The notes beneath the pieces were generated by a model, which searched no databases, was not told where the DNA came from, and worked only from the letters and a program-made list of their open reading frames with translations. DNA of 64,000 nt from an uncultured Bacillales bacterium (GTDB lineage: Bacteria > Bacillota_I > Bacilli_A > RFN20 > CAG-288): contig CASEGJ010000003.1 in assembly GCA_949287425.1 (NCBI GenBank), positions 8,993-72,992 on the forward strand, in the 5' to 3' direction. A program made the position numbers and the translations under genes. This document shows positions 3,734 to 46,955 of the stretch, one piece after another (the stretch's first letter is position 1; the number at the start of each line of letters is the position of its first letter).

Positions 3734-6700
3734 ATGTCAAAAGTTAAATTTAATGAAATTGTTTCATCTTTAAAAAGCGAATGTGAATCCTGTCCCTTTT
3801 TAAAAATGAATTTTTCTAACATCAATCAAATAGATATAATTACTAATTCACAAGGTCTATTTTTAGAAAATTTATTTAAAAACACCTCTTTTTCGTTTGT
3901 TAATTTTTTTGATACAAATACTAGTTTAAATGATGATGTAATTAAGTTTAATCAAATTGAAATTCAAAAGAAAGCTAAATATAACATCAACGAAATTGAA
4001 GAATTATTAAAAACTCAACCTTTAAAATATAACGAATTAACAACCACTCTACTTAGCAATCAACAAAGCAAACAATTAACCTCTTTATTAAATCAAGATG
4101 ATGTTTTTCTTACTTTTTTAAACCTTTATTATCAAAAAAAGGATTCTAAAACAATATATTCAACACCTTTGTTATTTTTTAAGGTCAAATTATTTTTCAA
4201 AGATAATTCGATAAACTTATCTTTAGACTATAATACCTATCTATTTAACAGCTTAATTATCAATCAATTAAAACGCGATTATAACATCGATTTAACATAT
4301 TCAAAATACACTTTTAATTTAGAAGAATATATTTTAGAAACGCAAAAGAAAATCAGCAATTTTCATTTTGGAATCGATTGTGTTTTTTCTTTAATTAAAT
4401 TTGATGTTTTTAAATATTTAAAACTCGATACCGTTTTAGAATATTTCGATTCCAACTATCATACTAGCAATGATGTTTTTTTACATTTAAATAATGAATT
4501 TACCCCTACAAATCTCACTTATAATTCAAAATCAACTCAACTTGATTTTGTTCAACAAGCCATCAATCAATTGCAAAACCATTCAATAATTCAAGTTGAT
4601 AAATTAAACAAATTTTCCACTCGTTTTATAAAAGAAACAATTAATGAACACATATTTAAGAAACAAAACGTTCTTTTTATAACACCTTCCAAAAATAAAG
4701 AAGATGAGCTAAGGAAAATGCTTATTCAAAATTATTATGATGGCTTTTTCTTGCCGGTTCACGTTTATGATCCAAATTTTTCTATCTTTTCTTTAATTAA
4801 AAATAGCAAAAATAAAACCAATTATATTCTCGATTCAAATTTAATCTACCAAAAACAAGAAGTTTCCGAACTAAACGATGAATTTCAGCATCTTTCCTCT
4901 GAATTATGTCAAATAGGAACATCATTACAAGAAGACGATTTTGAAATTTTCACACATTATTATTCAAACGCATGTCTAGCTAATCAAATTTTTGAATTTA
5001 GAACAGATCAAGAATATTCATTTAATAATTATTTGACAGATTTAGATTTTTTAAAATTTTTAAGCGAAAATAAATACTATGATACACATGGCATTTTAAA
5101 TAATAAATATCATTTAATTTCCAATTTACTTAACGATTATGAATATGATGATTTTATTAAATTTATTAAACAAACCCTGCAAGAATTTAACATTTTTTAT
5201 CAGCTTTTAGATCAATCACATATAAAAGAGTCAAATTTTTCTAATTTTACATTTATAAATCAAGTTCTAAAAATCATTAAAGAAATAAATATATTTACCG
5301 ATTTTAATTTTTTTAATCTCGATTATTTTAATTTCGATTTTTCAAAACAAAATTTAGATTATTCTAACCAATTAAAAGATTGTTATAGAACTCATGCTTC
5401 AATTCATTTAACTTTAGATATGGTGTGTAATCAAGATGTTTGGAAATTAAATTTTCAAGATGTTTTGAACTCTTTAAAAGATAAAAAGGCAGAGAAAGAA
5501 ACGCGTAAGATGTTTAGAAACATCATCAAAATATCCCCATTTAGCAAAACGTATAAATCCGTTTTAATCTTGCTTGATAAATATATCAAAAACGAGGAAT
5601 TAACTAACCAATTAAAAGAAAAGCTTTATCCTTATTTTAAAGATGAATGTTTAAGTTTAGATGGCTTATTAAACTTAGATAAAATTGCAAAATATATAGA
5701 TAGTTATAAACAATTTCAAGCCAATCACCCTGATTACGATTTTCACAGTGATTTTACAAAACAAGTTTTTACTAACAAATCTTATTTTGAAGAAATTAAA
5801 CTCGGTATTGAGAATTTACAAAAACAATTTCAAAAGATTCAAGAAAATTTAAACAAACTATTAATTATCTTACCTAATGATAGTTTTAACTATTTAAATT
5901 CCTCTTTTGAAGAAATAAACAAACACTTAAATAATTATCTAACTGGAACCAAAGAAGAATTTATAACAGCCTTAACCTTTAATAAGCTCTACAATAAAAC
6001 ATCGTATTTTATTAAACAAGCGATTCAACAATCTCCTGCTGAAAATTTAAATAATTTTTCTATAAACTTTCAAACCTCTATCAATCAATATGTACTATTG
6101 GATAACTTCAATCGTATCGGTGGAATTAAAACTCTAGAAACAGCCAATTCTATTTTAAATGAATTTTATACTAAAAATAATTCTGTAATTGAAAACTTAG
6201 ATTTAGATTTGATTAATTTCTTTAATAAAGCTAAAGATCAATTGATTAACTTACCTTCTTTTAATCAGACTTTAAGCCAACTAAAACGCGAATATCAAAA
6301 TGGTCAAATTTATTCCTTGTTTAGAAGTATAGATGTATCTGGGTATTTGCTTTATCACCTTAATCCTATTGAAATCATCAATATTTATTCTGCGATTTAT
6401 TTAAAAAACTATAAATTTAATTTAGCTATTGTTGATTTAGAACAAATCTCATTAGAAGATTTGCTGTTCTCATTTTTATTAGCAGACAAAGTTATTCTAA
6501 TTGGAAATTTAACTCATCAAATAGAAAATTGTATTCCACATTTTCAAGCGAGTTTATCAACCGATTTATCTATATATACATACTCTTTACCAAAAGAAGT
6601 GTTAAATAGAATTATTAATTGTTTTAATAGACATAACATCAAATTAGAATTAAATAAAAAGATAGACGATTTTACTATCGGTTATTATTTTGAAGTTAAC

Positions 6701-7300
6701 AACAATAAATTCGCTTTAAAAGTAGAAACATCTAAAGATATCTTAACTTTTAAAAATTGTAATTTAATTCCATCGTTTTTATATAATAATTATCAAATTA
6801 AAACAAAATATTTATATTTAATCCCATTTATCATTTATGAAGATTTATCTGTTCTTTTACTATATAACGAGATTGATTTTAATAAAAATCAAGAACTCGT
6901 TGAAAAGAAAAAATACGATTCATTAACATATGAACAAAAAAGAAGAGTTGATTACTTTTCAATGTTAGATAAAATCTCTCAATCTTTTAAAGAATATTCA
7001 CCTAATCAAGAAGAAAAGATAACAAAAATAACCCCTTTAAGAAGATCCAATTTAAAATTAAGAGCTGTTGAAACAATTTCTTATTTAGAAATCGCTGGTG
7101 GTATCTTAACCTTCCTTTCTAAATTTTCATATTTAAATAAACAAACTTTATTAAAAAGAATAGCGTTAGTAATTGGAACAACAGAAAAAGATATAAATTA
7201 TAATATTCTATTTAACAAAGCATGTTCTTTTTTAGAAGAAGAAAATTTAATTGAAGCAAAAGAAAACCGCTTATATTTAAAGCGGCAATCTAATATATAA
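3734..7300 (+). CDS. 1188-aa hypothetical protein with a degenerate SF1 (Upf1/DNA2-like) helicase core; no Walker A
   Basis: Long uninterrupted ORF. Segment AIVDLEQ-(N10)-ADKVILIGNLTHQI resembles helicase motif II (vIiDEAgQ) and motif III (vvLvGDhkQLpP) with catalytic residues replaced. No GxxxxGK[TS] anywhere. N/F/K-rich. Confidence 0.6.
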   Translation: MSKVKFNEIVSSLKSECESCPFLKMNFSNINQIDIITNSQGLFLENLFKNTSFSFVNFFDTNTSLNDDVIKFNQIEIQKKAKYNINEIEELLKTQPLKYNELTTTLLSNQQSKQLTSLLNQDDVFLTFLNLYYQKKDSKTIYSTPLLFFKVKLFFKDNSINLSLDYNTYLFNSLIINQLKRDYNIDLTYSKYTFNLEEYILETQKKISNFHFGIDCVFSLIKFDVFKYLKLDTVLEYFDSNYHTSNDVFLHLNNEFTPTNLTYNSKSTQLDFVQQAINQLQNHSIIQVDKLNKFSTRFIKETINEHIFKKQNVLFITPSKNKEDELRKMLIQNYYDGFFLPVHVYDPNFSIFSLIKNSKNKTNYILDSNLIYQKQEVSELNDEFQHLSSELCQIGTSLQEDDFEIFTHYYSNACLANQIFEFRTDQEYSFNNYLTDLDFLKFLSENKYYDTHGILNNKYHLISNLLNDYEYDDFIKFIKQTLQEFNIFYQLLDQSHIKESNFSNFTFINQVLKIIKEINIFTDFNFFNLDYFNFDFSKQNLDYSNQLKDCYRTHASIHLTLDMVCNQDVWKLNFQDVLNSLKDKKAEKETRKMFRNIIKISPFSKTYKSVLILLDKYIKNEELTNQLKEKLYPYFKDECLSLDGLLNLDKIAKYIDSYKQFQANHPDYDFHSDFTKQVFTNKSYFEEIKLGIENLQKQFQKIQENLNKLLIILPNDSFNYLNSSFEEINKHLNNYLTGTKEEFITALTFNKLYNKTSYFIKQAIQQSPAENLNNFSINFQTSINQYVLLDNFNRIGGIKTLETANSILNEFYTKNNSVIENLDLDLINFFNKAKDQLINLPSFNQTLSQLKREYQNGQIYSLFRSIDVSGYLLYHLNPIEIINIYSAIYLKNYKFNLAIVDLEQISLEDLLFSFLLADKVILIGNLTHQIENCIPHFQASLSTDLSIYTYSLPKEVLNRIINCFNRHNIKLELNKKIDDFTIGYYFEVNNNKFALKVETSKDILTFKNCNLIPSFLYNNYQIKTKYLYLIPFIIYEDLSVLLLYNEIDFNKNQELVEKKKYDSLTYEQKRRVDYFSMLDKISQSFKEYSPNQEEKITKITPLRRSNLKLRAVETISYLEIAGGILTFLSKFSYLNKQTLLKRIALVIGTTEKDINYNILFNKACSFLEEENLIEAKENRLYLKRQSNI

Positions 7301-18319: not shown

Positions 18320-18988
18320 TCAATAAACTTCGATAGAGAAAAACGTCAAAATTCTAGAAGCGTTATGTATTGAAGAGTATCTACCAAAACTTAAGAATAT
18401 TCTATCTAAGAAATGATAGTCAGCTACTTGTTTATCATTAACTTCACTTTTTAAATTTTCTTGATTAGTATAGTCATAATATAAATAATCAAGACTAGCT
18501 TCCTTAATAGAAATAAAATTATCTGGGTATGAATAATCTAAATCACATAGAGAATAATTTCTTTCTTTAAGATAAGTTCCATCTTCGTTTCCAATATCAA
18601 AAAGCGATTGAATATCTAAACTATTTTCAACTTTATCACTTTGATAGTAAGTTAAATCAGCTTTATTTATAATATCGCCTATATGAATGTTAAAAATAGA
18701 ACTATCTTTATTGCAAGTTAAAATCTTTAATAGTTTACTATCTTTAAAAACAATTTTTTTGGATTTATCTTTAGAAGTAAAAATTACATAATTGGAAACT
18801 TCGCTTTTAATATAATTAGTATCTTTTTGAATTTTATTAAAGGCTTCATCATCTAAAAAAGAATAATCAATTCCAGTGCTAGTTTCTAAAATATAGTTTA
18901 GTTCATCTTTTACTTTTTGTTCGTTATTACAAGAAGATAAAGTTAAACTAGTTAATAATATTAAAAAATAGCTTAATATCTTTTTCAT
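18320..18988 (-). CDS. lipoprotein, member of a tandem paralog family
   Basis: Lipobox LSSC; shares blocks with the two upstream paralogs (e.g. YVIFTSKD.../YKVFRSNDD...). Confidence 0.65.
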   Translation of the reverse strand: MKKILSYFLILLTSLTLSSCNNEQKVKDELNYILETSTGIDYSFLDDEAFNKIQKDTNYIKSEVSNYVIFTSKDKSKKIVFKDSKLLKILTCNKDSSIFNIHIGDIINKADLTYYQSDKVENSLDIQSLFDIGNEDGTYLKERNYSLCDLDYSYPDNFISIKEASLDYLYYDYTNQENLKSEVNDKQVADYHFLDRIFLSFGRYSSIHNASRILTFFSIEVY

Positions 18989-19596
18989 AATACCCCCTTA
19001 AAAGAAAATTCAAAATTAAACAAAGTTTGATATGGACTTTCTTTATTATATGAATAGGCTAAAGTTAATTTATCATCATAAATAAATTCTCTATAAGAAT
19101 AAGTGATGTTTTCATATGTAAAATCTACATAATTTACTGGATTTTCTACTTCTTTATATCCTTTTAAATTCAATAATTCTGATAAAGAGTCATACTGATT
19201 TTTAACTAGTGGATTGTCTTTTGATAAAATTGTATTACTACCTATAAAAAAACCATAAATTGATGATAAGATATTCGTATATATAATATCATCTGTATTT
19301 GTGTATTGATTTTGAGAAGTGGTTTCAACCTTTCTTAAAATATTTTCTCTATCTATATAAATCTTATGCTTATTATGAACATCTGCATAAATAGTATATG
19401 ACTCGTTTTGCTCTTCTAAATTATATTGAAGTTCTAAATATTTACTGTTAGCTCTTCTTCCTACTAACATGCCTAAATTAGTGATTTCTTTAGTAAGATT
19501 AATAACTTCATCAAGAATATTTGTTTTACTAATTGAAGACTGACAAGAAGTTAATAATATAAAAGGTAAACATAGTAATATTACTTTCTTTTTCAT
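18985..19596 (-). CDS. lipoprotein paralog (start trimmed to MKKKVILL... at 19596)
   Basis: Lipobox LTSC. Confidence 0.6.
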   Translation of the reverse strand: MKKKVILLCLPFILLTSCQSSISKTNILDEVINLTKEITNLGMLVGRRANSKYLELQYNLEEQNESYTIYADVHNKHKIYIDRENILRKVETTSQNQYTNTDDIIYTNILSSIYGFFIGSNTILSKDNPLVKNQYDSLSELLNLKGYKEVENPVNYVDFTYENITYSYREFIYDDKLTLAYSYNKESPYQTLFNFEFSFKGVL

Positions 19597-19606
19597 ATTG
19601 ATTCTC

Positions 19607-20185
19607 CTATTCATATTGAATAAAAAAAGCATAGAGTTTTACATTTGTTATACTAGAACTAAGCGTACCAAAAATAGTTTTACCAGCGCATTGATAAAAA
19701 GCCCAATTTGCTTGAGATTTATTGCCATTATTATCAATTTCAGTTCTAGAGCCAATTAAATAGATATCATCGAAAAAAGTACCAGATAAGATATAATCTT
19801 TAGAATATTTTGAATTAAAATCTAAATTCAAATATTCATAAAATTCAGTAAAATTACCTGTTCCAATTTGCCATCCTAAAATTGAAGATTTTGTATCGTA
19901 TGTTAAAAACCTATATAAGGTGTTACTATTATCAAAATAATAGTAGTTTAAATCATCATTAGATCTAAAAACTTTATAGCTATTCCAATCTTCTAAAACG
20001 TAATTATCATCTTGAGAAAGCTTATCAAAAGCTTTGTTATCTCCTATTTTATATTCTTGATTAACTATATGATTATCTTGAAGATTTCTTAATTCATTAT
20101 AAGAAAGTAATTGACACGAACTAAGAAAAATCAAAGAAAACAATGTAATTAAAATAAATGTTTTTTTCATAACCGTCTTTTTCAA
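19607..20185 (-). CDS. lipoprotein paralog
   Basis: Lipobox LSSC; similar to 18320-18988. Confidence 0.65.
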   Translation of the reverse strand: MKKTVMKKTFILITLFSLIFLSSCQLLSYNELRNLQDNHIVNQEYKIGDNKAFDKLSQDDNYVLEDWNSYKVFRSNDDLNYYYFDNSNTLYRFLTYDTKSSILGWQIGTGNFTEFYEYLNLDFNSKYSKDYILSGTFFDDIYLIGSRTEIDNNGNKSQANWAFYQCAGKTIFGTLSSSITNVKLYAFFIQYE

Positions 20186-20213: not shown

Positions 20214-20227
20214 ATATATATATATAT
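20214..20227. repeat. (AT)7 dinucleotide repeat in divergent promoter region
   Basis: atatatatatatat, ~30-45 nt upstream of lipoprotein start 20185. Confidence 0.8.
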
Positions 20228-20436
20228 TTAATATACTTACACTTTTATTATAAATCGTTTTTTTGATGGTCAATATTTGTGTTTTTGTTAGCTAGCTAAC
20301 TTGTTTTAGTCTTACTAACTTTCCAATTTATGTATTATTGAAACACATAGTAAGCTGCTATCAACAAAAATAATTAGTTTTAAAAGTACATATATTGTAT
20401 ACTAATAAATAGTGTTTTATATTTGGAGGAAACAAA

Positions 20437-20910
20437 ATGGCTAATAGTTATAACAATCGCACATTTAAAATTAAAACATCATCAAATCCAAAGTTAATTT
20501 TTGCAATTATCGCTTTAATTCTCGGTTTAGCTTCTCTTTTCTTTTTATTAGCTCCTGGAATAAATTTCACTTATGCTGGCTCTAGCAAATTACATACCAT
20601 TTCTTTAGGTGGGTTAGTTTGGGGATCAACTTATACTAATCTTTCTGCCGGATTAGTTGTCGCTTTCTTTTTAGGAATCGTCGCTAGTTTATTAGCTTTA
20701 GCTACTCCTGGTTTACATTTTATAGGTTATTTAGCTGGATTATTGTTTATTGCTTGTGGGGCTTTATATTTTTCAGCTATTCCTCTTTTAGCAGATGATT
20801 TAAAAATTATCGGCTATGGAAGTATAAGCTTAGGCTATGGTGTTTATACGGCTGGTATTTGTCAATTTATTGCAGCTATATTATCGTTTATAGCAGCCTA
20901 TGGCGAGTAG
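20437..20910 (+). CDS. 4-TM small membrane protein (paralog pair A)
   Basis: 157 aa; four hydrophobic helices; related C-terminus (ICQFIAAILSFIAAYG) to the next gene. Confidence 0.6.
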   Translation: MANSYNNRTFKIKTSSNPKLIFAIIALILGLASLFFLLAPGINFTYAGSSKLHTISLGGLVWGSTYTNLSAGLVVAFFLGIVASLLALATPGLHFIGYLAGLLFIACGALYFSAIPLLADDLKIIGYGSISLGYGVYTAGICQFIAAILSFIAAYGE

Positions 20911-20978: not shown

Positions 20979-21440
20979 ATGAGCGCAAATAATCAAAACA
21001 AACCACTTGTAAAAAAATCTAAAGATTCCAAATGGAACTTTGTAACTATTTTAGCTTGTATTAGCGGCGGTATCGGTTTACTTTCTATTTTATTTATTCT
21101 TTGTCCTGGAATAACTTATCCATATACTGGATATTATAATTCCGGTTTTAATTTAGCTAGCATGATTTTTGGTAACGGCATGTGGGCTAGTTTAAATCCT
21201 GGTTTACTAATAGGCTTTATCATTATGATTATCTCTTCATTAGTTTGTTTCTTGGCCTTTGTAAAACAACAATTCGGTTTAATTTCTTGCCTTGGATTTA
21301 TAACTTCTGCTATCTTGTTTTTCTGCATTATTCCTTTATATGGAAACTATTCTGCTGGAATCGGCTCTGGTGCAATTTGTATAGCGACATTTAATTTACT
21401 ATGCGCTATATTATCGTTTATCTTTGCAACATATAGATAA
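20979..21440 (+). CDS. 4-TM small membrane protein (paralog pair B)
   Basis: 153 aa; same architecture, C-terminus LLCAILSFIFATY. Confidence 0.6.
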   Translation: MSANNQNKPLVKKSKDSKWNFVTILACISGGIGLLSILFILCPGITYPYTGYYNSGFNLASMIFGNGMWASLNPGLLIGFIIMIISSLVCFLAFVKQQFGLISCLGFITSAILFFCIIPLYGNYSAGIGSGAICIATFNLLCAILSFIFATYR

Positions 21441-21531
21441 TATAAATAAATACAATCTAAACAAATAAAAAGCTGTTAATTGCTGATATTCAAAGCATAT
21501 CAAATTAACAGTTTTTATTTTTAATCAAACA

Positions 21532-22018
21532 CTAAGCAAAGTAAGAAACTTCTCCTTCCAAGATATTTACTTGGCAACTATGTACTTTCATAAAATTGTC
21601 CATACTTGAAAAACTAACCATAAAACTTACCTGTAGCCCTTCTTTAAGATTACCGACATATTTGTCAAATCTTTCAACTAATTTGCTATTTTTATATAAA
21701 AATATAATTCTTAGTTTTAAGCCATCAATATCTACTTGTGGAACTATATTAAATTTATATCCCATATTAAAAAAATCAAACTCTGTATTTAAATTTAATT
21801 GAATATCATCTATTTTAACTGACCTTTTAAATGGAGTGTTGATGTTATTCTCACTAGATTTATTTAATTCTTTAAAAGCAGCAAACCCAATTAAAGTAAG
21901 CACTAAAATTATAATAACTGAAATACTAAATACTAAAAATACACGGGATTTTTTATCCGATGTATCTTCTTTATTTTCGCCTGTTTCTTTATTTTCTTTT
22001 TTTATCTAATTCTTCCAT
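21532..22018 (-). pseudogene. N-terminally anchored membrane/surface protein interrupted by a frameshift in a poly(A)7 tract (T7 on + strand at 21997-22003)
   Basis: ATG at 22018 reads MEELDKKRK* with A7; with A6 it reads MEELDKKENKETGENKEDTSDKKSRVFLVFSISVIIILVLTLIGFAAF... continuous with ORF 21532-21903. Confidence 0.5.
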
Positions 22019-37683: not shown

Positions 37684-39045
37684 ATGAGTGTTAAATTAGA
37701 TCAATTGGATAATATTTGGAAATTAGTATTAAAGAAAATCGAAAATAAAACAGAAGATAGAACTAGTTTTAATAGTTTAATTTCGCCTTGCTATTTAGAA
37801 TCGCTAACAAATAGTAAAGCTGTCTTAATTGCTCCTCACGATGTTGCTAAAAAGATTTTAAACGAAAATTTTTATCAGCTTATTTTAAATGAATTAAATG
37901 ATGTTACTGAATCCAATTTTAATTTAGAAATTTTATCTAAAAATGAAATTCAGAAAAAAACTTCATATAGTTCATATAAACAAACTAACAATAATTATTT
38001 TGAAAATTGCTGTTTGCAACAAAAATATACTTTTAATAATTTTGTTGTTGGTAAATCTAATAAAGAAGCTTATGATTCCGCGACTTTCATTGCCTCTAAC
38101 CAAGCAAAATTCAATCCTTTATTTATCTATTCTAAATCTGGTTTAGGTAAAACTCATTTAATGTGCGCTATCGGTAACTATGTAAAAAATAAATTTCCTG
38201 AAAAAAAAGTTTTATATATAACTTCAAATGATTTTGTCGATGAGTTTGTCAAATTTGTTAGAGGTGATTCTGATAAAGAACCATTAAAAGAATTTTTTAG
38301 AGGTATAGATTACCTTTTAATTGATGATATTCAATTTTTAGCTAACAAGACTCAAACAGAAGTTATGTTTTTTAATATCTTTAACCTCCTTGTCGATTCT
38401 AACAAACAAATTGTTATCACTTCAGATACTCCTCCTAATTTACTTTCAGGTTTAGAAGAAAGATTAGTCACTCGTTTTGCTCAAGGATTAACTGTTTCAA
38501 TTGATAAACCAGAAAAAGCTACTTTAATTGAAATTCTAAAAATGAAAATTAAATCTAACGGATTTAATCCCGATATTTTTGAAGATGATGCTTTAGATTA
38601 TTTAGCTAATAGTTTTTCTAACGATATAAGATCTTTAGAAGGGGCTTTAAATAGAATTTTATTTTTCAATGTAACTTCTAACAATCTTGATAACATAACT
38701 TTAGAAATAGTTAAGCAAGCTTTTAACAAAGAAAATGAACATGTTAAAAAAGGTGAAAAAATAACTGCTGAAAAAATTATTTCTGTTGTTTCACGATATT
38801 ATAATCTTACAGAGACACAATTGCTATCTAACGTAAGAACTAATCAAATTTCACTTGTTAGAGCAATCGCTATGTATCTATGTCGTTCTATTTTAAATCT
38901 TTCAACAACTTCTATCGCTACTAGTTTTCATAAAAAAGACCACACAACAGTATTAGCAGCTTATAAAAAAGTGGATAACTTGTTAAAAACTGATGACGCT
39001 ATGAAAAAAGCTATAAAGCAGTTAACAAACCAATTAAAAGCTTAA
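37684..39045 (+). CDS. dnaA: chromosomal replication initiator DnaA
   Basis: 453 aa; AAA+ Walker A GKSGLGKTHL, domain IV HTH. Confidence 0.97.
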   Translation: MSVKLDQLDNIWKLVLKKIENKTEDRTSFNSLISPCYLESLTNSKAVLIAPHDVAKKILNENFYQLILNELNDVTESNFNLEILSKNEIQKKTSYSSYKQTNNNYFENCCLQQKYTFNNFVVGKSNKEAYDSATFIASNQAKFNPLFIYSKSGLGKTHLMCAIGNYVKNKFPEKKVLYITSNDFVDEFVKFVRGDSDKEPLKEFFRGIDYLLIDDIQFLANKTQTEVMFFNIFNLLVDSNKQIVITSDTPPNLLSGLEERLVTRFAQGLTVSIDKPEKATLIEILKMKIKSNGFNPDIFEDDALDYLANSFSNDIRSLEGALNRILFFNVTSNNLDNITLEIVKQAFNKENEHVKKGEKITAEKIISVVSRYYNLTETQLLSNVRTNQISLVRAIAMYLCRSILNLSTTSIATSFHKKDHTTVLAAYKKVDNLLKTDDAMKKAIKQLTNQLKA

Positions 39046-39100
39046 TAATAAGGGATTTTTTTGATATAATTATATAGTAAAAACTTTGTGATTTCACAAG

Positions 39101-39118
39101 TTATTCACATTATTCACA
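39101..39118 (+). promoter_or_regulatory. two tandem DnaA-box-like sites (TTATTCACA x2) between dnaA and dnaN
   Basis: 1-mismatch DnaA boxes; typical second oriC module of Firmicutes/Mollicutes. Confidence 0.5.
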
Positions 39119-39168
39119 CAAATCACAAGCTTTATTATTAATATTATTTAGAAAGGAATAATTATTAT

Positions 39169-40281
39169 ATGAAATTAACGTTAAAAAGAGCTCCATTTGA
39201 AAAAATTTTAACTACATTAAGCGAAGTCATTCCTTCTCAAACAGCTGATGCTAATTTAAAGAATTTTTTAATCGATGTTTCTGAAGATGGTTTTAAGATT
39301 TTAGGTTCAGATGGAACTTTATCAATAGAAACTTTTATTTCAAACAAAGGTGATTCAATTATAATTAACTTAAACCCAGGTTCAGTTCAAATACCAGCTA
39401 GTTTATTTTTATCTGCTATAAAAAGATTATCTAATGAAATTGTAAGTTTAGAACTTGTCGATGAATCGTTATTATATTTAACTGATGAATTAACTCAATA
39501 TCAATTAAAAGTTATACCTGCTAATGAATATCCTAATATTTCGATGGAATGTTCTTTAGATGAATCTATAACTATTAAGATGTCTGATTTTGAAAGACTA
39601 TATCAAACTACTTATTTTGCTGTTGCTAATAAAGGGCCAAAAGAACTATTTTGTGGAATTAACATTTCAGCTAAAAATGATAAATTAACTTTTGTCGCTA
39701 CTGATTCATATCGTCTTGCAAGAAAATATATCGATTTAGATAAGGAACATTATTTTTCTATAACAGTTCCTTCTAAAGCTTTAACTTTAGTTTCTCATAT
39801 AACTTCTTATCAAGAAGTCAGTATGTATTTAGATACTAATAAAGTGTTATTTAAAGTTGGTCCTTATACTGTTTCAAGCAAACTTATTCCTGGTGAATTC
39901 CCTAATATCGATAAAATTATTCCTACCAATATCACATATAAATTAGATGTTAATTCAAAAGAATTTATTCAAGCCGTTGATAATATAACTATCGTTGGTA
40001 ACTCTAGAATTCAAGTTACTTGTGGCCCTGATATAATTCAATTAGCTTCTAAAGATCAAAATGTCGGTTCTTCTATGATGCCGTTAAAAGATGCTCATTT
40101 TGAAGGTGATGATAGATTTAGCATCATTTTTAAATCTAATTTTGCAATAGACGCAATTAAAGCTTTAGATTCTGAAAGAGTCTGTTTGGAATTCGTTTCT
40201 GATTCAAGAGCGTTTTTAATTACTAGTGAAGATAAATCAATAACTCAAGTAATTACACCAATTAGAACTTTATCTGAATAA
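39169..40281 (+). CDS. dnaN: DNA polymerase III beta sliding clamp
   Basis: 370 aa, three-domain clamp; position after dnaA. Confidence 0.9.
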   Translation: MKLTLKRAPFEKILTTLSEVIPSQTADANLKNFLIDVSEDGFKILGSDGTLSIETFISNKGDSIIINLNPGSVQIPASLFLSAIKRLSNEIVSLELVDESLLYLTDELTQYQLKVIPANEYPNISMECSLDESITIKMSDFERLYQTTYFAVANKGPKELFCGINISAKNDKLTFVATDSYRLARKYIDLDKEHYFSITVPSKALTLVSHITSYQEVSMYLDTNKVLFKVGPYTVSSKLIPGEFPNIDKIIPTNITYKLDVNSKEFIQAVDNITIVGNSRIQVTCGPDIIQLASKDQNVGSSMMPLKDAHFEGDDRFSIIFKSNFAIDAIKALDSERVCLEFVSDSRAFLITSEDKSITQVITPIRTLSE

Positions 40282-40293
40282 ATATCAATTATG

Positions 40294-40328
40294 AGAAGTA
40301 AACTTAAACGGTTTGCTTCTTTTTTTTA
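40294..40328 (+). terminator. intrinsic terminator after dnaN
   Basis: AGAAGTAAAC...GTTTGCTTCT 10-bp stem (one G.U) plus T8. Confidence 0.6.
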
Positions 40329-40935
40329 TGTGTTAGATATTAATATTTTGTGTTTAATACTTTTTAAGAAGTTAAAAAAATAGCTGTAGCTCATTATAAT
40401 CAGCTTTTTTAGCTATTTTATTCTGAATAAAATTAAGTACATATCACCTCATGTTTGTTTTAACTTTTACTTATTATTGATTTTATTGTTTTTGAAGAAA
40501 GTAGATAAAAAAATAAAATATAAATTTTAAAATTAAAAGTTTTTCAAAGGTAAATGCAAAAATATCGATATTTTTTATCATGTAATCAATTTAAAGACTG
40601 TATTTTTTGTAATTAATTTTATTTTTAGATAAACCAATAGTGTAGATGTGTTTTGATAAATTTTTTCTACCTTACCTTTCTATTGTGATTGTTGTGGGTC
40701 ATAATAGAAAACGTTAATAAGTTTATTTCCTTTATTATTATTTTCTAAAAGACTAGATGAAGAAAATTCAATACCTCTATCTGCTAAAAGCACCTCAAAG
40801 ATTGAAGAAAAAGATTCATTTCCGAGAGTGCTTTTATTTTTGCATTTAACTATTTAATCTACATTAATATATATAGTAAATATTATATATATAATATAGT
40901 GCTTAAAAATGGTATAATATTCTTGGTATCGATTT

Positions 40936-41145
40936 ATGGAAAAGAAAATTAAAATTCATACTCCTTATATCACTTTAGGCCAATTTTTAAAATTTACTAA
41001 CATTATTTCTAATGGAGGACAGGAAAAAGTTTTTTTGTTAGAAAATGAAGTGAAAGTAAATTCTACTTTAGAATCTAGACGTGGAAGAAAATTAAAAATT
41101 GGAGATAAAGTTGAAGTTTTAGGAAATATCTTTGAAATATGCTAG
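40936..41145 (+). CDS. yaaA: S4-domain RNA-binding protein YaaA
   Basis: 69 aa; S4 motif; conserved position between dnaN and recF. Confidence 0.7.
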   Translation: MEKKIKIHTPYITLGQFLKFTNIISNGGQEKVFLLENEVKVNSTLESRRGRKLKIGDKVEVLGNIFEIC

Positions 41146-42224
41146 TAAAAAAACTAGATCTATATCAGTTTAGAAATTATTCTGAGCTTCATATAGAATT
41201 TAAAGATAAGATTAACTTTGTTATAGGACCTAATGCGTGTGGTAAAACAAATTTAATTGAAGCTATTTATTATTTATGTTTAACAAGATCTTTTAAAAAA
41301 GCAGAAGATAAAGATTTAATTCAATTTAATAAACAAATAGCTCAAATTAGACTTCAATATCAATTGGAAGATGAAATTGTTCACGAATTAGGAGTCGATA
41401 TTACCAAAAAAGGAAAGTTAGTATATTTTGATAACGAGAAGCAAAAATCAGTTGCTAAAATTGTTTCTAAATTGCTAGCTATCGCTTATTCTCCTTTCTC
41501 TGTTAACTTATTCAAGTTAGAACCATCAGAAAGAAGAAAGTTTATGGATCAATCTATCTCTCTTATTTCAAAAGATTACTTAGAACAATTATTGCAATTT
41601 AGAAAGATACTAAAACAAAGGAATATGGCTTTAGTTAATCAAGACGAGATTGTAATTGAATTGTTAACTAAAGATTTGATTGATATTTCTTACCCTATAT
41701 TTATAGCTAGATATAATTTTGTAAAAAAAATATCTAAATATCTAGCTGAAATATACTATGTATTATTTGATACAAGCGAAAAATTAAATTTAAAATATTC
41801 GACTAGTTTACCTAATTATGAACAAGAAGGAGAATTTAAAAAAGCATATAAAGAAAGATTCGATACGATTAAATCAGAGGAAAGAAAAAAACAAGTAACA
41901 TTGATAGGATTGCAAAAAGATGACTTAATTGCTTATTTAGATAACAAACAAGTTTATTCTTATTGTTCTCAAGGTCAAAATAGATTAGTAGTTCTCGCTT
42001 TGCATTTAAGTTTATATGAAGTTTTATATGAAAGGTATAAGACTAAGCCAATATTATTACTTGATGATGTTCTTTCTGATTTAGATGAAAAAAGAAAAGA
42101 AAGACTAATTGATTATTTATCTAAATTAGGACAAGTATTTATTACTACTAGTGAAGAAATTAAAAATAAAGAAAAATACAATGTTATAAACGTTAAAGAT
42201 ATATCTAAAGGAGGAGTAAATTAA
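41139..42224 (+). CDS. recF: DNA replication and repair protein RecF
   Basis: GPNACGKTNL Walker A; SMC-like signature and Walker B (LLLDDVLSDLD). Confidence 0.9.
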   Translation: MLVKKLDLYQFRNYSELHIEFKDKINFVIGPNACGKTNLIEAIYYLCLTRSFKKAEDKDLIQFNKQIAQIRLQYQLEDEIVHELGVDITKKGKLVYFDNEKQKSVAKIVSKLLAIAYSPFSVNLFKLEPSERRKFMDQSISLISKDYLEQLLQFRKILKQRNMALVNQDEIVIELLTKDLIDISYPIFIARYNFVKKISKYLAEIYYVLFDTSEKLNLKYSTSLPNYEQEGEFKKAYKERFDTIKSEERKKQVTLIGLQKDDLIAYLDNKQVYSYCSQGQNRLVVLALHLSLYEVLYERYKTKPILLLDDVLSDLDEKRKERLIDYLSKLGQVFITTSEEIKNKEKYNVINVKDISKGGVN

Positions 42225-44245
42225 TGTTAGAAGAAAAACAAATTGAAACCGAAGAAAAAGTTAACGATGATGAAGAAGTAAAATTTGAAAAAATCGATGA
42301 AGAAACTGAACGTGAACAAGAAAGAGGTAAAAAAGATTATTCAGGTAAAGATATTCAAGTTTTAAAAGGTCTTGAACCGGTTAGAGAAAGACCTGGCATG
42401 TATATAGGTACAACATCTTCTAGAGGTTTACACCATTTAATTAGAGAAATTGTCGATAATGCTGTAGATGAAGCTTTAGCTGGATATTGTCATAATATTT
42501 TTGTTAGCTTAGAAAAAGATGGTTCAGTCACTGTTTCTGACGATGGTAGAGGTATACCTGTTGATGTGGTTTCCGATACAGGATTATCTGGTGTTGAAAC
42601 AGTTTATACAGTTTTACACGCTGGTGGTAAATTTGAAGGAAGTGAAGGTTATAAAGTTTCAGGTGGTCTTCATGGTGTTGGCGCTAGTGTAGTAAATGCA
42701 TTATCTACTCAAGTTAACGTTAAAGTTTTTAAAAATGGTCAAATTTATGAAATTCAATTTTTAAATGGAGGACACACTCAAGAACCTGGACTTCATGTTG
42801 TAGGAAATTGTGATCCTAGTAAAACAGGAACAACAGTTAACTTTACCCCAGATCCAAGCATATTTAAAGAAACAGTTACTTTCAATTATTTAGAAGTAAA
42901 AGAATATTTAAGACAAACGGCTTATTTAAATAAAGGGTTAAGTTTAACTTTGACTGATAATAGAGAAGAAGAAATTAAACAAGAAAATTTCTGTTATCAA
43001 GGTGGGATTTCTGAATACGTAGCTTATTTAAATATAGGTAGAACTCCTGTTTTTGATAATATTTTATATTTCGACGGAAAATCTGAAAGTGTTTTTGTTG
43101 AAGCGGCATTTCAGCCTACAAAAGCTTCTTCTAGTATTGTAAGAAGTTTTTGTAATAACATTATGACAGCTGGTGGAGGAACTCATGAAGAAGGTTTTAG
43201 ATTAGCTATAGTTCGTGAATTAAACCGCTATTTTAAATTTAAAGGTTGGAGAAAAGAAAACGAAGATAATTTCACCGCTGATGATATTTATGAAGGTTTA
43301 ACATGCACAATTTCAGTTAAACACCCTGATCCTCAATATGAAGGACAAGTTAAAGATAAATTAGGAAATGCTGAAGTTAGAAAGATAACTTCTTCTATCG
43401 TTGGAAATCAACTTAGAGATTTTTTGGAACAAAATCCTAAATTAGGAAGATTGTATTATGAAAGAGTTTTAACTGCTTGCAAAGGTAGATTAGCAGCTGA
43501 AAGAGCTAGAAATCAAGTAATTGGTAAATCTGGAGTTGGAGGTAATTTACCTGATAAATTAGCAGATTGTGTTTCTAAAAATCCAGAAGAAAGAGAATTG
43601 TTTATCGTTGAAGGTAATTCCGCTGGAGGTTCAGCTAAAAATGGTAGAGATGCTTTTACCCAAGCAATATTACCTTTAAGAGGTAAGATTTTAAATATTG
43701 AAAAAGCCGCTGATACAAGAATTGAAAAGAATGCGGAAATTGAAAATATGATAAACGCAATCGGCGCTGGATTTGGCTCTCAATTTGATATTACTAAAGC
43801 TAAATATCACAAAGTTATTATTATGACTGATGCTGATGTTGATGGTTCTCATATTCGTATTTTACTTCTAACTTTCTTCTATAGATTTATGAAGCCTCTT
43901 ATTGAAAATGGATATGTTTATATCGCTCAGCCACCTTTATATAAATTGACATATCAAGGACATGATTATTATTGTTTTAAAGAAGAAGAATTGCCTATTT
44001 TGAAATCTAAGCTACCTCAAAACGCGAGATTTTCTTTACAAAGATATAAAGGTTTAGGTGAAATGGATCCTTCTCAATTAGCGGAAACAACAATGGACAA
44101 AGATAAAAGATTAATGTGGAAAGTTACAATTCAAGATGCTGAAGAAGCCGAATTAGCTTTAACTGATTTAATGGGTGATAATGTTCAACCAAGAAAAGAA
44201 TTTATTACCGCAAACGCTAAATTTGTTAAAAATCTCGATATTTAA
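42224..44245 (+). CDS. gyrB: DNA gyrase subunit B
   Basis: 673 aa; GHKL ATPase, Toprim (EGNSAGGSAK), PLRGKILN motifs. Confidence 0.97.
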   Translation: MLEEKQIETEEKVNDDEEVKFEKIDEETEREQERGKKDYSGKDIQVLKGLEPVRERPGMYIGTTSSRGLHHLIREIVDNAVDEALAGYCHNIFVSLEKDGSVTVSDDGRGIPVDVVSDTGLSGVETVYTVLHAGGKFEGSEGYKVSGGLHGVGASVVNALSTQVNVKVFKNGQIYEIQFLNGGHTQEPGLHVVGNCDPSKTGTTVNFTPDPSIFKETVTFNYLEVKEYLRQTAYLNKGLSLTLTDNREEEIKQENFCYQGGISEYVAYLNIGRTPVFDNILYFDGKSESVFVEAAFQPTKASSSIVRSFCNNIMTAGGGTHEEGFRLAIVRELNRYFKFKGWRKENEDNFTADDIYEGLTCTISVKHPDPQYEGQVKDKLGNAEVRKITSSIVGNQLRDFLEQNPKLGRLYYERVLTACKGRLAAERARNQVIGKSGVGGNLPDKLADCVSKNPEERELFIVEGNSAGGSAKNGRDAFTQAILPLRGKILNIEKAADTRIEKNAEIENMINAIGAGFGSQFDITKAKYHKVIIMTDADVDGSHIRILLLTFFYRFMKPLIENGYVYIAQPPLYKLTYQGHDYYCFKEEELPILKSKLPQNARFSLQRYKGLGEMDPSQLAETTMDKDKRLMWKVTIQDAEEAELALTDLMGDNVQPRKEFITANAKFVKNLDI

Positions 44246-44261
44246 TTAAGGAGTTAACAAA

Positions 44262-46955
44262 ATGGAAAATGAAGAAAAGAAATTAAATCAAGATGAATTA
44301 GAAGAAAATTCTAATGAAAATAACGAAAATCAAAATTTAGTAGAAGAATCTGAAGAAGAAGCTAAATTAGAAAAAGGCGAAGGTATTCAAGGAATAAGTG
44401 AAGGTATTAAAGGCGGAATTGAAGATGTAGAAATGGGGCCTTTAGTAAAAGAATCTTTCCTTGATTATGCGATGTCAGTTATTGTAGCAAGAGCTTTGCC
44501 TGATGCTAGAGATGGTTTTAAACCTGTTCAAAGAAGAATAATTTATGGTATGAATGTTTCTGGATTTACTCCAGATAAACCATTTAAAAAATCAGCGAGA
44601 ATTACCGGTGATATTATGGGTAAATATCATCCTCATGGCAACTCAGCTATCTATTTAGCTATGGCTAGATTAGCTCAAGATTTCGCAACTAGATACCCTT
44701 TAGTTGAAGGTCATGGTAACTATGGTTCTCAAGATGGAGATGAACCAGCTGCTGAAAGATATACAGAAGCAAGATTATCTAAACTCGCTTTAGAAGTTGT
44801 TAAAGATATTAACAAAGATACAGTTAATTTTATTGATACATATGATGGTGAAGGTAAAGAACCAGAGGTTTTGCCTTCCAAAATTCCAAATTTAATTATC
44901 AATGGTTCAATGGGTATTGCTGTTGGTATGGCAACTAACATTCCTCCTCACAATTTGTATGAGACTTTAACAGCTATTCAGGAATTAATTAAAAATCCTG
45001 ATTTAACTCCAAGTGATTTAATGCAATATATAAAAGGGCCTGATTTTCCTGGTGGAGGACTTATTTTAGGTCGTTCTGGTATTAAAAAGTATTTTGAAAC
45101 CGGAACAGGAAGCGTTGTCGTTAGAGGAAAATATGAAATAGTAGAGAAAAACGATAGAGCGTCAATAATCTTTACTGAAATTCCTTATATGGTAAATAAA
45201 AAGGATCTTAGAAAGAAAATTATTGAACTTTGTGATAATAAAGTTATTGAAGGAATTGCGGCTGTTTCTGATTTTTCATCTCACGCAGTAGGAACTAGAT
45301 TCCAAATTGATTTAAAAAAGAATGTCAATGTTGAAATCGTTTTAAATCATTTATTTAAATATACAGCTTTACAATCTAATTTCCCTGTTAATATGTTAGC
45401 TCTTGATGAAGGTGTTCCTAAGATTTTAAATATGAAGCAAGCTTTAGAAATATTTATTAAATTCCAAGAACACATCGTTGAAAGAAGAACGAGATTCGAT
45501 TTGAAAAAACATCAAGATAGATTACATATTTTAGAAGGTTTAGTAATCGCTCATTCTAACATTCAAAAAGTCATTGAGTTAATTACTAATGTTGAAACTC
45601 AAGAAGCTGCTAGTTTAGCTTTACAAGAGAGTTTTGGATTAGATGAAATTCAAACTAAAGCAATTTTAGATATGCCTTTAAGAAGATTGCCCCATCTTGA
45701 AATTAGCAAGATTGAAGATGAAATTAACAATTTGAGACAAGCTATAGATAGATGTAATAAGATTTTAGGTAACTTTGAAGAATTAAAACAAGTTGTTTTA
45801 AATGAATTAGAAGAAACTAAGAACAAATTTAAAGATGATAGAAGAACTGAAATTGGAGAAGGAAATTACTCAACTGAAGATGAAGATTTAATTGAAGATG
45901 AAGAAATTTTAATTATTTTAACTGCTTCAGGCTATATTAAAAGAATTTCCCCAGATACTTTTAGAACTCAAAATAGAGGTGGAGTTGGCGTAATTGGAAT
46001 GACAACTAAAGAAGATGATATCGTTAAATCTTTGGTACATTCTCGCACTAAGACTGATGTTTTATTCTTTACTAATTTAGGTAAAGTTTATCGTTTAAGA
46101 GGATATCAAATTCCTTTTGGGTCAAGAACTAGTAAAGGTCTACCTATTGTAAACGTTATTAAATTAGAAGAAAATGAAAAAGTTTTAACAATAATTTCTT
46201 GTTCAACTTACGATGATAATCATTATTTGTTCTTCGCTACGAAAAACGGAACAGTTAAAAAGACCCCTACTTCACAGTTTGAAAACATCAATTCCAATGG
46301 TAAAATCGCGATAAATTTAGCTGAAGGAGATAGCTTAGTTGATGTTAAATGTACCGATGGAAATGCATTTATTTCTTTAGCTTCTTCTAAAGGTAAAGTT
46401 TGTAGCTTTAAAGAAAGCGATGTTAGAGCGATGGGAAGAACAGCTACCGGTGTTAAGGGAATGAATGTCGATGGTGGATATGTTATAGGTGTTTGTACTT
46501 CTCAAGAAGGAGGAAATCAAATTTTCACCATTTCTGAAAATGGATATGGGAAAAGATCTGATTTTACTGACTTTAGAATAACATCTAGAGGTTCAAAAGG
46601 TGTTTATGCTATTAAAGTAAGTGAAAAGGCCGGAGATTTAGTAGATATTAAAGCAGTTAAAGAATCTGATGAAATCACAATTATCACTGATGCTGGAACA
46701 GTTTTAAAAACTAGATTATCCGATATTCACGAAGCTGGTAGACAAACTATAGGCGTTAAAGTAATTACTTTAAAACCAGGAGAAAGGATAACTTCTTTAG
46801 CAGTAAGTCCAACTAGTGAAGATTATGAATCTGATGAAGATAATAAATCTGTTCAGAATAATTCAGATCAATTAGAAAATTATATTGATGCAGAAGTTAA
46901 TCAAGATAAAAGACAAGAAGAAACTTTAGAAGATCAAGAACAAGAAAAGGAATAA
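44262..46955 (+). CDS. gyrA: DNA gyrase subunit A (with acidic C-terminal tail)
   Basis: 897 aa; active-site region AAERYTEARL, GyrA-box beta-pinwheel repeats. Confidence 0.97.
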   Translation: MENEEKKLNQDELEENSNENNENQNLVEESEEEAKLEKGEGIQGISEGIKGGIEDVEMGPLVKESFLDYAMSVIVARALPDARDGFKPVQRRIIYGMNVSGFTPDKPFKKSARITGDIMGKYHPHGNSAIYLAMARLAQDFATRYPLVEGHGNYGSQDGDEPAAERYTEARLSKLALEVVKDINKDTVNFIDTYDGEGKEPEVLPSKIPNLIINGSMGIAVGMATNIPPHNLYETLTAIQELIKNPDLTPSDLMQYIKGPDFPGGGLILGRSGIKKYFETGTGSVVVRGKYEIVEKNDRASIIFTEIPYMVNKKDLRKKIIELCDNKVIEGIAAVSDFSSHAVGTRFQIDLKKNVNVEIVLNHLFKYTALQSNFPVNMLALDEGVPKILNMKQALEIFIKFQEHIVERRTRFDLKKHQDRLHILEGLVIAHSNIQKVIELITNVETQEAASLALQESFGLDEIQTKAILDMPLRRLPHLEISKIEDEINNLRQAIDRCNKILGNFEELKQVVLNELEETKNKFKDDRRTEIGEGNYSTEDEDLIEDEEILIILTASGYIKRISPDTFRTQNRGGVGVIGMTTKEDDIVKSLVHSRTKTDVLFFTNLGKVYRLRGYQIPFGSRTSKGLPIVNVIKLEENEKVLTIISCSTYDDNHYLFFATKNGTVKKTPTSQFENINSNGKIAINLAEGDSLVDVKCTDGNAFISLASSKGKVCSFKESDVRAMGRTATGVKGMNVDGGYVIGVCTSQEGGNQIFTISENGYGKRSDFTDFRITSRGSKGVYAIKVSEKAGDLVDIKAVKESDEITIITDAGTVLKTRLSDIHEAGRQTIGVKVITLKPGERITSLAVSPTSEDYESDEDNKSVQNNSDQLENYIDAEVNQDKRQEETLEDQEQEKE

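What the first reader, a model, noticed from the sequence alone, without database searches (positions are those of the whole stretch)
21532..22018. Membrane-anchored protein gene switched off by a poly(A)7 tract; candidate slipped-strand phase variation
The ATG at 22018 (minus strand) reads MEELDKKRK-stop across a run of seven A (T7 at 21997-22003 on the + strand). Removing one A gives one continuous ORF: MEELDKKENKETGENKEDTSDKKSRVFLVFSISVIIILVLTLIGFAAF..., a charged N-terminus, one TM anchor and an extracytoplasmic domain. This is in frame with called ORF 21532..21903, which otherwise starts at an implausible GTG inside the TM helix. Homopolymer-tract ON/OFF switching of surface proteins is well established in Mollicutes. 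The gene lies in a locus full of lipoprotein and small membrane-protein paralogs.
Basis: seen in the sequence. Interest (0 to 1): 0.55.

Follow-up and report, generated by a model that had tools for sequence, protein, structure and literature searches.

The report
Strain-fixed frameshift pseudogene at poly(A) run

Summary
On the minus strand, ATG 22018 reads MEELDKKRK-stop across A7 (22003-21997). Deleting one A gives a 161-aa ORF that joins the called ORF 21532-21903. The reconstruction is confirmed: sister strains in metagenomes carry A6 and an intact 159-aa protein with exactly the predicted N-terminus. The protein has a short tail, one TM helix and an Ig-like beta-sandwich, and belongs to an uncharacterised FxLYD-like family.

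The phase-variation reading is not supported.
- In 24 sequences the tract length follows clade markers exactly.
- A7 is shared with a divergent lineage from another study, so it is one old event.
- No revertant exists in a 15-billion-protein collection.
- The A7 clade has further derived damage: D106Y at a residue that is D in 53 of 61 relatives, and a 2-residue insertion in a strand.
- A third clade is knocked out by a nonsense codon 3.
- The intact clade shows almost only synonymous polymorphism.
- A7 runs are commonplace here: 77 in 64 kb, 8 of them near the 5' end of intact genes.
- Local A7 runs change length only about 9 times as often as a single base substitutes.

Best reading: a slipped-strand frameshift fixed in one lineage, now a decaying pseudogene. 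Low interest.

The parts
21532..22018 (-). Whole frameshifted gene (pseudogene allele). With one A fewer it encodes 161 aa: charged tail, one TM helix, Ig-like beta-sandwich domain.
   Evidence: The intact ortholog P0001 covers 100% of the repaired ORF at 97% identity.
22016..22018 (-). True ATG start codon.
   Evidence: It is the start of the intact 159-aa gene called in L001-L007.
21997..22003 (-). A7 homopolymer (codons 6-8), the site of the +1-nt frameshift. It is A6 in the intact alleles.
21989..21991 (-). Premature TAA stop reached in the shifted frame after MEELDKKRK.
21992..21995 (-). Second short A run (A4 here). It is expanded to A6 or A8 in the nonsense-mutant clade L016-L022.
21865..21948 (-). 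Coding region of the single TM helix (residues 24-51 of the repaired protein). It contains the GTG at 21903 that ORF callers use as a false start.
   Evidence: AF2 model helix 24-51; ORF list.
21544..21828 (-). Coding region of the extracytoplasmic Ig-like beta-sandwich domain (FxLYD-like family).
   Evidence: AF2 pLDDT above 90 over this part. The family profile matches with E 1e-39. 19 of 61 relatives hit NF038353.
21787..21798 (-). TTAAAT TTAAAT: a derived 6-bp tandem duplication (LN to LNLN) inside beta-strand 1, found only in the A7 window clade.
   Evidence: strand E72-79.
21694..21696 (-). TAT (Tyr) codon: derived D-to-Y change at the most conserved acidic residue of the F-x-D-K-N motif.
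   Evidence: D in 53 of 61 family members. GAT in all non-window-clade alleles.
21473..21511 (.). AT-rich hairpin flanked by T runs on both strands. Probable bidirectional intrinsic terminator between the target gene and the convergent 153-aa gene.
   Evidence: RNA fold dG -19.7 kcal/mol, z -4.3.

Best explanation
The locus is a strain-polymorphic pseudogene. The ancestral gene encoded a type-II membrane-anchored protein: a short K/E-rich cytoplasmic tail, one TM helix, and an extracytoplasmic Ig-like beta-sandwich of an uncharacterised FxLYD-like family. In an ancestor of the window strain's lineage, replication slippage added one A to an ordinary Lys-codon run (AAA AAA, A6 to A7). Translation from the true ATG now stops after 9 residues. 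This allele was inherited stably, both by the whole window clade and by a more divergent lineage. It has since accumulated neutral or damaging changes. The origin by slippage and the decay after inactivation are inferred. The allele states, their clade distribution and the extra lesions are shown directly.
For: 1. An intact A6 allele with exactly the predicted N-terminus occurs in 7 fetched contigs.
2. Tract length follows the clade exactly. A7 is in the window, L008-L015 and L023, all of which also carry the N52 marker. A6 is in all 14 others.
3. The A7 clade is not one clone. Its flanks differ by up to about 1%, and there are two coding sub-haplotypes.
4. L023 comes from a different study (SRR7683028). 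It has A7 plus a second indel, two stop codons and R65M at a residue conserved in at least 90% of relatives.
5. The window clade has derived D106Y (D in 53 of 61 relatives) and an LN duplication in a beta-strand.
6. A third clade (L016-L022) is independently inactivated by E3-to-stop plus +2 or +4 nt in the second A run.
7. Substitutions in disrupted lineages are about 15 nonsynonymous or nonsense against 4 synonymous (pN/pS about 1). The intact clade has 1 against 3 (about 0.09). Fisher p = 0.067. Flanking genes have pN/pS of about 0.1-0.2.
8. The exact sequences of the hypothetical revertants are absent from about 15 billion proteins.
9. A7 runs are ordinary here. Locally, 3 of 9 runs of 7 or more vary in length and 0 of 66 runs of 5-6 do. 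That is about 9 times the per-site substitution rate.
10. The nearest homolog outside the species (P0007, 40% identity) has no homopolymer at its 5' end.
Against: - Only consensus assemblies were seen, so minority A6 subpopulations inside A7 samples cannot be excluded.
- The downstream 150 codons remain open in the window clade.
- The selection test rests on few substitutions (p = 0.067).
- Some contigs may be ENA and Logan assemblies of the same samples, so there are fewer independent observations than contigs.
- Poly-A tracts of 7-9 nt do phase-vary in Mycoplasma hominis vaa (PMC524362), so tract length alone does not exclude switching.
Confidence: 0.8

Rival explanations
1. This is a true contingency locus. 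A6 and A7 interconvert by slipped-strand mispairing at a useful rate, switching a surface protein ON and OFF. The consensus in each sample only shows the state currently favoured.
For: The frameshift sits in a homopolymer at the 5' end of a surface-exposed protein gene. Both lengths exist in nature. Two neighbouring A7 runs also vary in length. M. hominis vaa switches with A8 ON and A7 or A9 OFF at 1e-3 to 1e-4 (PMC524362).
Against: - Tract length associates perfectly with linked SNP markers in 24 sequences.
- No revertant is in the protein collection.
- Irreversible nonsense knockouts occur in other clades.
- The OFF clade carries derived damage at a conserved residue.
- The tract is no longer or more frequent than dozens of others in intact genes.
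- Its length-change rate is only about 9 times that of a base substitution.
- There is no homopolymer in the nearest homolog.
Confidence: 0.1
2. The gene is still expressed in the window strain by recoding. Either a +1 ribosomal slip or transcriptional slippage on the A7 run restores the frame in a fraction of products.
For: A runs can cause low-level polymerase and ribosome slippage (general knowledge, not tested here). The downstream frame is open to the normal stop, and a terminator is retained.
Against: The frameshift is not conserved. The intact clade is A6, and across alleles the body lies in three different frames relative to the ATG. A7 is shorter than the runs of about 9 or more usually needed for efficient transcriptional slippage (from memory). 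No stimulatory element was seen. Extra damaging changes argue that the product is not under selection.
Confidence: 0.05
3. Loss of this surface protein is adaptive, for example to escape a phage or host recognition. That would explain at least two independent knockouts. The A7 allele was then selected, not merely tolerated.
For: There are two independent inactivation events: the A7 frameshift and the E3-to-stop codon. Together they account for about 70% of observed contigs, 26 of 37. The product is predicted to be surface-exposed. The locus neighbours strain-variable lipoprotein genes.
Against: Two events in a small dispensable gene are also expected under simple relaxed selection. There is no functional information on the family, and sampling is dominated by one study.
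Confidence: 0.2

Closest known systems
Mycoplasma hominis vaa adhesin poly-A phase variation (Zhang and Wise 1997, as summarised in PMC524362)
   Same: A short poly-A run lies in the 5' end of a gene for a surface membrane protein of a low-GC organism. One-nucleotide length changes move the gene in or out of frame (vaa: A8 ON, A7 or A9 OFF).
   Different: vaa switches reversibly at 1e-3 to 1e-4 within clonal populations. Here the length is fixed by clade, no revertants are seen, the OFF allele carries further damage, and other strains use nonsense mutations.
Homopolymer-frameshift pseudogenes in AT-rich genomes. Simple-repeat indels are general mutational hotspots in prokaryotic coding regions (PMC3315296, PMC2831843).
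   Same: A Lys-codon A run near the N-terminus gains one base. Indel variability rises steeply with run length: 0 of 66 runs of 5-6 nt against 3 of 9 runs of 7 or more. The result is a strain-specific truncated gene.
   Different: Nothing essential differs. This is a new instance in an uncultured Bacilli (Mollicutes-like) lineage.
FxLYD domain-containing proteins (NCBIfam NF038353)
   Same: The architecture is the same: an N-terminal tail (zinc ribbon in some relatives), one TM helix, and a small C-terminal beta-sandwich with an F-x-[LY]-D-K-N strand motif. 19 of 61 relatives hit the model (best E 1e-5).
   Different: The target itself does not reach the model's cut-off. The family has its own conserved signature (R-x-A...D-I, P-x-V-D-I, G-N-V-K-E-G, G-G-x-V-S-Y-F) and no described function.

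Membership tests
SSR-mediated phase-variable (contingency) gene | A hypermutable simple repeat lies in the coding region or promoter, and its length sets the reading frame or expression. | tested here: inconclusive
   The A6/A7 run does set the frame. But an A7 run is ordinary in this genome: 77 per 64 kb, 8 of them in the 5' ends of intact genes.
SSR-mediated phase-variable (contingency) gene | Repeat length varies among close relatives and within lineages, independently of phylogeny. | tested here: not met
   There is perfect linkage with clade markers. 10 of 10 N52 sequences are A7 and 14 of 14 others are A6. Several sub-haplotypes within each clade are all uniform.
SSR-mediated phase-variable (contingency) gene | Reversibility: ON and OFF forms exist on the same genetic background. 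| tested here: not met
   The exact sequences of the ON revertant on the window-clade background and of the OFF form on the intact-clade background are absent from about 15 billion proteins. This holds at consensus level only; read-level heterogeneity was not testable.
SSR-mediated phase-variable (contingency) gene | The OFF allele is otherwise intact and under purifying selection, so it can return to function. | tested here: not met
   The window clade has derived D106Y (D in 53 of 61 relatives) and a 2-residue insertion in a strand. L023 (also A7) has two stops. pN/pS is about 1 in disrupted lineages against about 0.09 in the intact clade, p = 0.067.
SSR-mediated phase-variable (contingency) gene | A switching rate orders of magnitude above the base-substitution rate. 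| tested here: not met
   Local A/T runs of 7 or more show 3 minimum length changes in 9 tracts, against 0.0365 substitutions per site. That is about 9 times. The population-genetic estimate is crude.
Programmed frameshift / transcriptional-slippage recoding | The frameshift site is conserved among orthologs. | tested here: not met
   The intact clade is A6 and needs no shift. Across alleles the body lies in three different frames.
Programmed frameshift / transcriptional-slippage recoding | Frame-restored mRNA or protein is detectable. | not testable with these tools
   No expression data are available.
FxLYD domain-containing protein (NCBIfam NF038353) | Score at or above the curated cut-off (23 bits). 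| tested here: not met
   P0001 has no NF038353 hit at E <= 1. Relatives P0007 (17.9 bits) and P0016 (17.5 bits) are below the cut-off. 19 of 61 relatives hit at E <= 0.05, best 1e-5.
FxLYD domain-containing protein (NCBIfam NF038353) | Membrane-anchored architecture with a small C-terminal beta-sandwich. | tested here: met
   The AF2 model has pLDDT 87, with TM helix 24-51 and a seven-strand sandwich at 64-156. Foldseek gives only generic Ig-like matches.
Frameshift pseudogene polymorphic among strains | The gene is disrupted relative to an intact ortholog of the same species, and the disruption is inherited by descent. | tested here: met
Frameshift pseudogene polymorphic among strains | Additional degenerative lesions or relaxed selection after inactivation. 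| tested here: met
   Secondary stops and an indel in L023. D106Y and the LN duplication in the window clade. An excess of nonsynonymous changes, statistically marginal.

The most novel reading that the evidence does not exclude
The most novel reading not excluded has two forms. (1) The A run is a low-rate but real contingency switch in an uncultured, Mollicutes-like gut bacterium that uses genetic code 11, and its switching is invisible in consensus assemblies. (2) This FxLYD-like surface protein is repeatedly lost under selection (phage or host pressure), which would make it the first functional handle on an uncharacterised family of at least 173 cluster representatives.
Probability: 0.1. 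Interest if true: 0.4.

Novelty: already known. Interest (0 to 1): 0.12.

Why it matters
It matters little biologically. It is one more example of a Lys-codon A run acting as an indel hotspot and creating a lineage-specific pseudogene in an AT-rich genome.

Three practical points follow:
- The annotated 123-aa ORF (GTG start inside a TM helix) is an artefact and should be annotated as a frameshifted pseudogene of a 159-161-aa gene.
- The case shows how population metagenome contigs can separate fixed frameshifts from phase variation without read data.
- The repaired protein defines an uncharacterised FxLYD-like membrane-anchored family, and strain-specific loss suggests it is dispensable.

Tried and rejected
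- **Genome-contig scan with the repaired protein** found nothing. A second scan with the neighbouring RsmE found only a 53%-identical 'Bacilli bacterium' MAG on a 4-kb contig without the locus. The species was therefore not named and no cross-species synteny was obtained.
- **JGI metagenome scans**, by DNA pattern around the tract and by protein, were both empty.
- **Pfam and NCBIfam scans of the target alone** gave nothing significant (DUF5508 at E 0.015, judged noise).
- **PDB searches.** The sequence-profile search found only TM or coiled-coil noise. Foldseek gave only generic Ig-like folds and no functional lead.
- **Promoter scan.** One -35/-10-like site lies upstream (22072-22043), but the region has no more sites than shuffled sequence. 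The terminator scan missed the AT-rich hairpin, which was then shown by folding.
- **Assembly error** was rejected because A7 is replicated in 8 other assemblies.
- **Alternative in-frame start** was rejected. After the in-frame TAG, the only start before the GTG at 21903 would be a non-canonical ATA or ATT without a Shine-Dalgarno sequence. Clade 3 has even lost the GTG.
- **Recurrent origin of A7** (homoplasy between L023 and the window clade) was rejected because both share the linked N52 change.
- **Literature search for the sample accessions** found nothing relevant, so host and time-series metadata are unknown.

Full report
**Observation.** Reading the minus strand and recomputing it confirms every sequence statement. 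ATG is at 22018-22016. It is followed by GAA GAA TTA GAT, then a run of seven A (22003-21997), then AGA AAA TAA, giving MEELDKKRK-stop. Removing one A yields a 161-codon ORF that ends at the TAG of the called ORF 21532-21903. The GTG that ORF callers use (21903) is residue 39 of the repaired protein, inside the predicted TM helix. The window has 27.6% G+C and contains 77 A/T runs of 7 or more, so the tract itself is not remarkable.

**Is the repaired gene real?** Yes.
- P0001, 159 aa, 97% identical over 100% of the query.
- P0002 and P0003, two 123-aa truncated calls.

An exhaustive phmmer search of 1.84 billion representatives found 173 relatives at E <= 0.001. They are typically 130-250 aa. 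They have a K/E/N-rich tail (a zinc ribbon in some), one TM helix, and a conserved domain of about 100 aa ending in GG-x-VSYF. Nineteen of 61 aligned relatives hit NCBIfam NF038353 (FxLYD domain) at E <= 0.05, best 1e-5. The target itself does not. An AlphaFold2 model built on the alignment (pLDDT 87) shows a disordered tail, helix 24-51 and a beta-sandwich at 64-156. Foldseek against the PDB gives only generic Ig-like matches. The product is therefore best described as a type-II membrane-anchored, FxLYD-like Ig-fold protein of unknown function. The outside orientation is inferred from the positive residues before the helix.

**Population evidence.** I fetched 23 contigs of the same species (flanks at least about 97% identical) that carry the locus in the same gene order: pectinesterase lipoprotein, RsmE, Wzy_C, target, two TM paralogs, lipoproteins. 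The allele table shows four states:

| State | Sequences | 5' end of the gene |
|---|---|---|
| i | Window + L008-L015 | A7 frameshift |
| ii | L001-L007 | A6, intact 159 aa |
| iii | L016-L022 | Codon 3 GAA to TAA, second A run (A4 in the others) expanded to A6 or A8, internal GTG lost |
| iv | L023 (different study, SRR7683028) | A7, a further 1-nt deletion, two in-frame stops, R65M |

A7 occurs in exactly the 10 sequences that also carry the linked AAT (N52) codon. A6 occurs in the other 14. A7 therefore arose once, before the window clade and L023 diverged, and has been inherited since.

The A7 clade is not a single clone. Its flanks differ by up to about 1%, and it has two coding sub-haplotypes. 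The intact clade has at least four sub-haplotypes, all A6. The exact sequences expected for an ON revertant on the window background, or an OFF form on the intact background, are absent from about 15 billion proteins. Two JGI metagenome scans added nothing.

**Decay.** Relative to all other alleles, the window clade has these derived changes:
- S61T.
- A 6-bp TTAAAT duplication (LN to LNLN) inside beta-strand 1.
- D106Y at a position that is Asp in 53 of 61 family members.

Across disrupted lineages I count about 15 nonsynonymous or nonsense changes against 4 synonymous (pN/pS about 1). The intact clade has 1 against 3 (about 0.09). Fisher p = 0.067, so this is suggestive only. Flanking genes show pN/pS of about 0.1-0.2. 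This is the pattern expected of a gene that is maintained in one clade and is decaying after inactivation in the others.

**Is the tract special?**
- Among 75 A/T runs of 5 or more in the roughly 6.8-kb neighbourhood, none of 66 runs of 5-6 nt varies in length between strains. Three of 9 runs of 7 or more do: the target, an intergenic run at 20258-20264, and one at 19622-19628.
- That is 0.33 events per tract against 0.0365 substitutions per site, about 9-fold. This is far from the orders-of-magnitude excess of true contingency repeats.
- Thirty-eight sense-strand A>=7 runs sit in 55 intact ORFs of the window, 8 of them within the first 30 codons. One is the A7 in codons 2-4 of the adjacent lipoprotein gene (20161-20167), which is invariant in all strains.
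- The nearest homolog outside the species has no homopolymer at its 5' end.

**Mechanism.**
- Shown: one extra A truncates translation after 9 codons. The allele is clade-fixed and old. Other clades are knocked out differently.
- Inferred: the extra A arose by replication slippage in an ordinary AAA-AAA Lys run. The gene is dispensable or its loss is favoured. The window allele is a non-functional pseudogene that still keeps its terminator hairpin (21473-21511, dG -19.7, z -4.3).
- Recoding by ribosomal or transcriptional slippage is unlikely. The shift is not conserved, and the body lies in three different frames across alleles.

**Comparison with known systems.** The locus shares the anatomy but fails the defining behavioural tests that could be run here: length variation independent of lineage, revertants, and an otherwise intact OFF allele. 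It fits the general picture of simple-repeat indel hotspots near gene termini (PMC3315296, PMC2831843).

The organism is an uncultured, low-GC Bacilli (Mollicutes-like) bacterium using code 11. Full-length GroEL, DnaA, GyrB and GyrA ORFs are read with TGA as a stop. The nearest GTDB representative found is only 53% identical in RsmE. The appeal to Mollicutes biology is therefore only loosely applicable.

**Verdict.** The phase-variation interpretation is not supported. This is an ordinary lineage-fixed homopolymer frameshift pseudogene, of low interest. The remaining uncertainty is read-level heterogeneity, which needs the raw reads.

Noticed in passing
window 19622-19628 (+ strand A7; T7 on the gene strand), with L017 4594-5613: This homopolymer lies near the 3' end of the 187/192-aa lipoprotein gene. 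It is one base shorter in L017 (ERZ16268115). That fuses the gene in frame with the next lipoprotein gene, giving a 340-aa call instead of 187 + 203 aa. It is a second natural homopolymer indel in this locus.
   Followed up: partly
window 20258-20264 and about 20214-20228: In the intergenic region upstream of the lipoprotein operon, the A7 run is A6 in L003 and L004. The adjacent (AT)n dinucleotide repeat differs in copy number between strains. This could affect promoter spacing.
   Followed up: no
window 18985-19596 (203/215-aa lipoprotein gene): This gene is much more divergent between strains than its neighbours (window vs L001: pS 0.12 and pN 0.04, against 0.04 or less and 0.003 or less). 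RsmE also shows a recombination-like block (pS 0.07-0.09 in some pairs). The locus is a mosaic.
   Followed up: partly
window 37684-46955: This is the chromosomal origin region: dnaA (37684-39045), dnaN (39169-40281), gyrB (42224-44245) and gyrA (44262-46955). The cumulative GC-skew minimum lies at about 34-40 kb. The target gene lies about 16 kb to the left, transcribed away from the origin.
   Followed up: partly
window 20437-20910 and 20979-21440: Two tandem small multi-TM proteins (157 and 153 aa) are paralogs (32% identity, E 3e-12) with no Pfam match. They are nearly invariant between strains.
   Followed up: partly
window 3734-7300: A 1188-aa ORF has no Pfam hit at E <= 1e-5. It is the largest unannotatable protein in the window.
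   Followed up: no
L016-L022, the position equivalent to window 21992-21995: In the clade already inactivated by a nonsense codon, the second short A run has grown from A4 to A6 or A8, and it differs between sub-lineages. This looks like homopolymer expansion once selection is lifted.
   Followed up: partly
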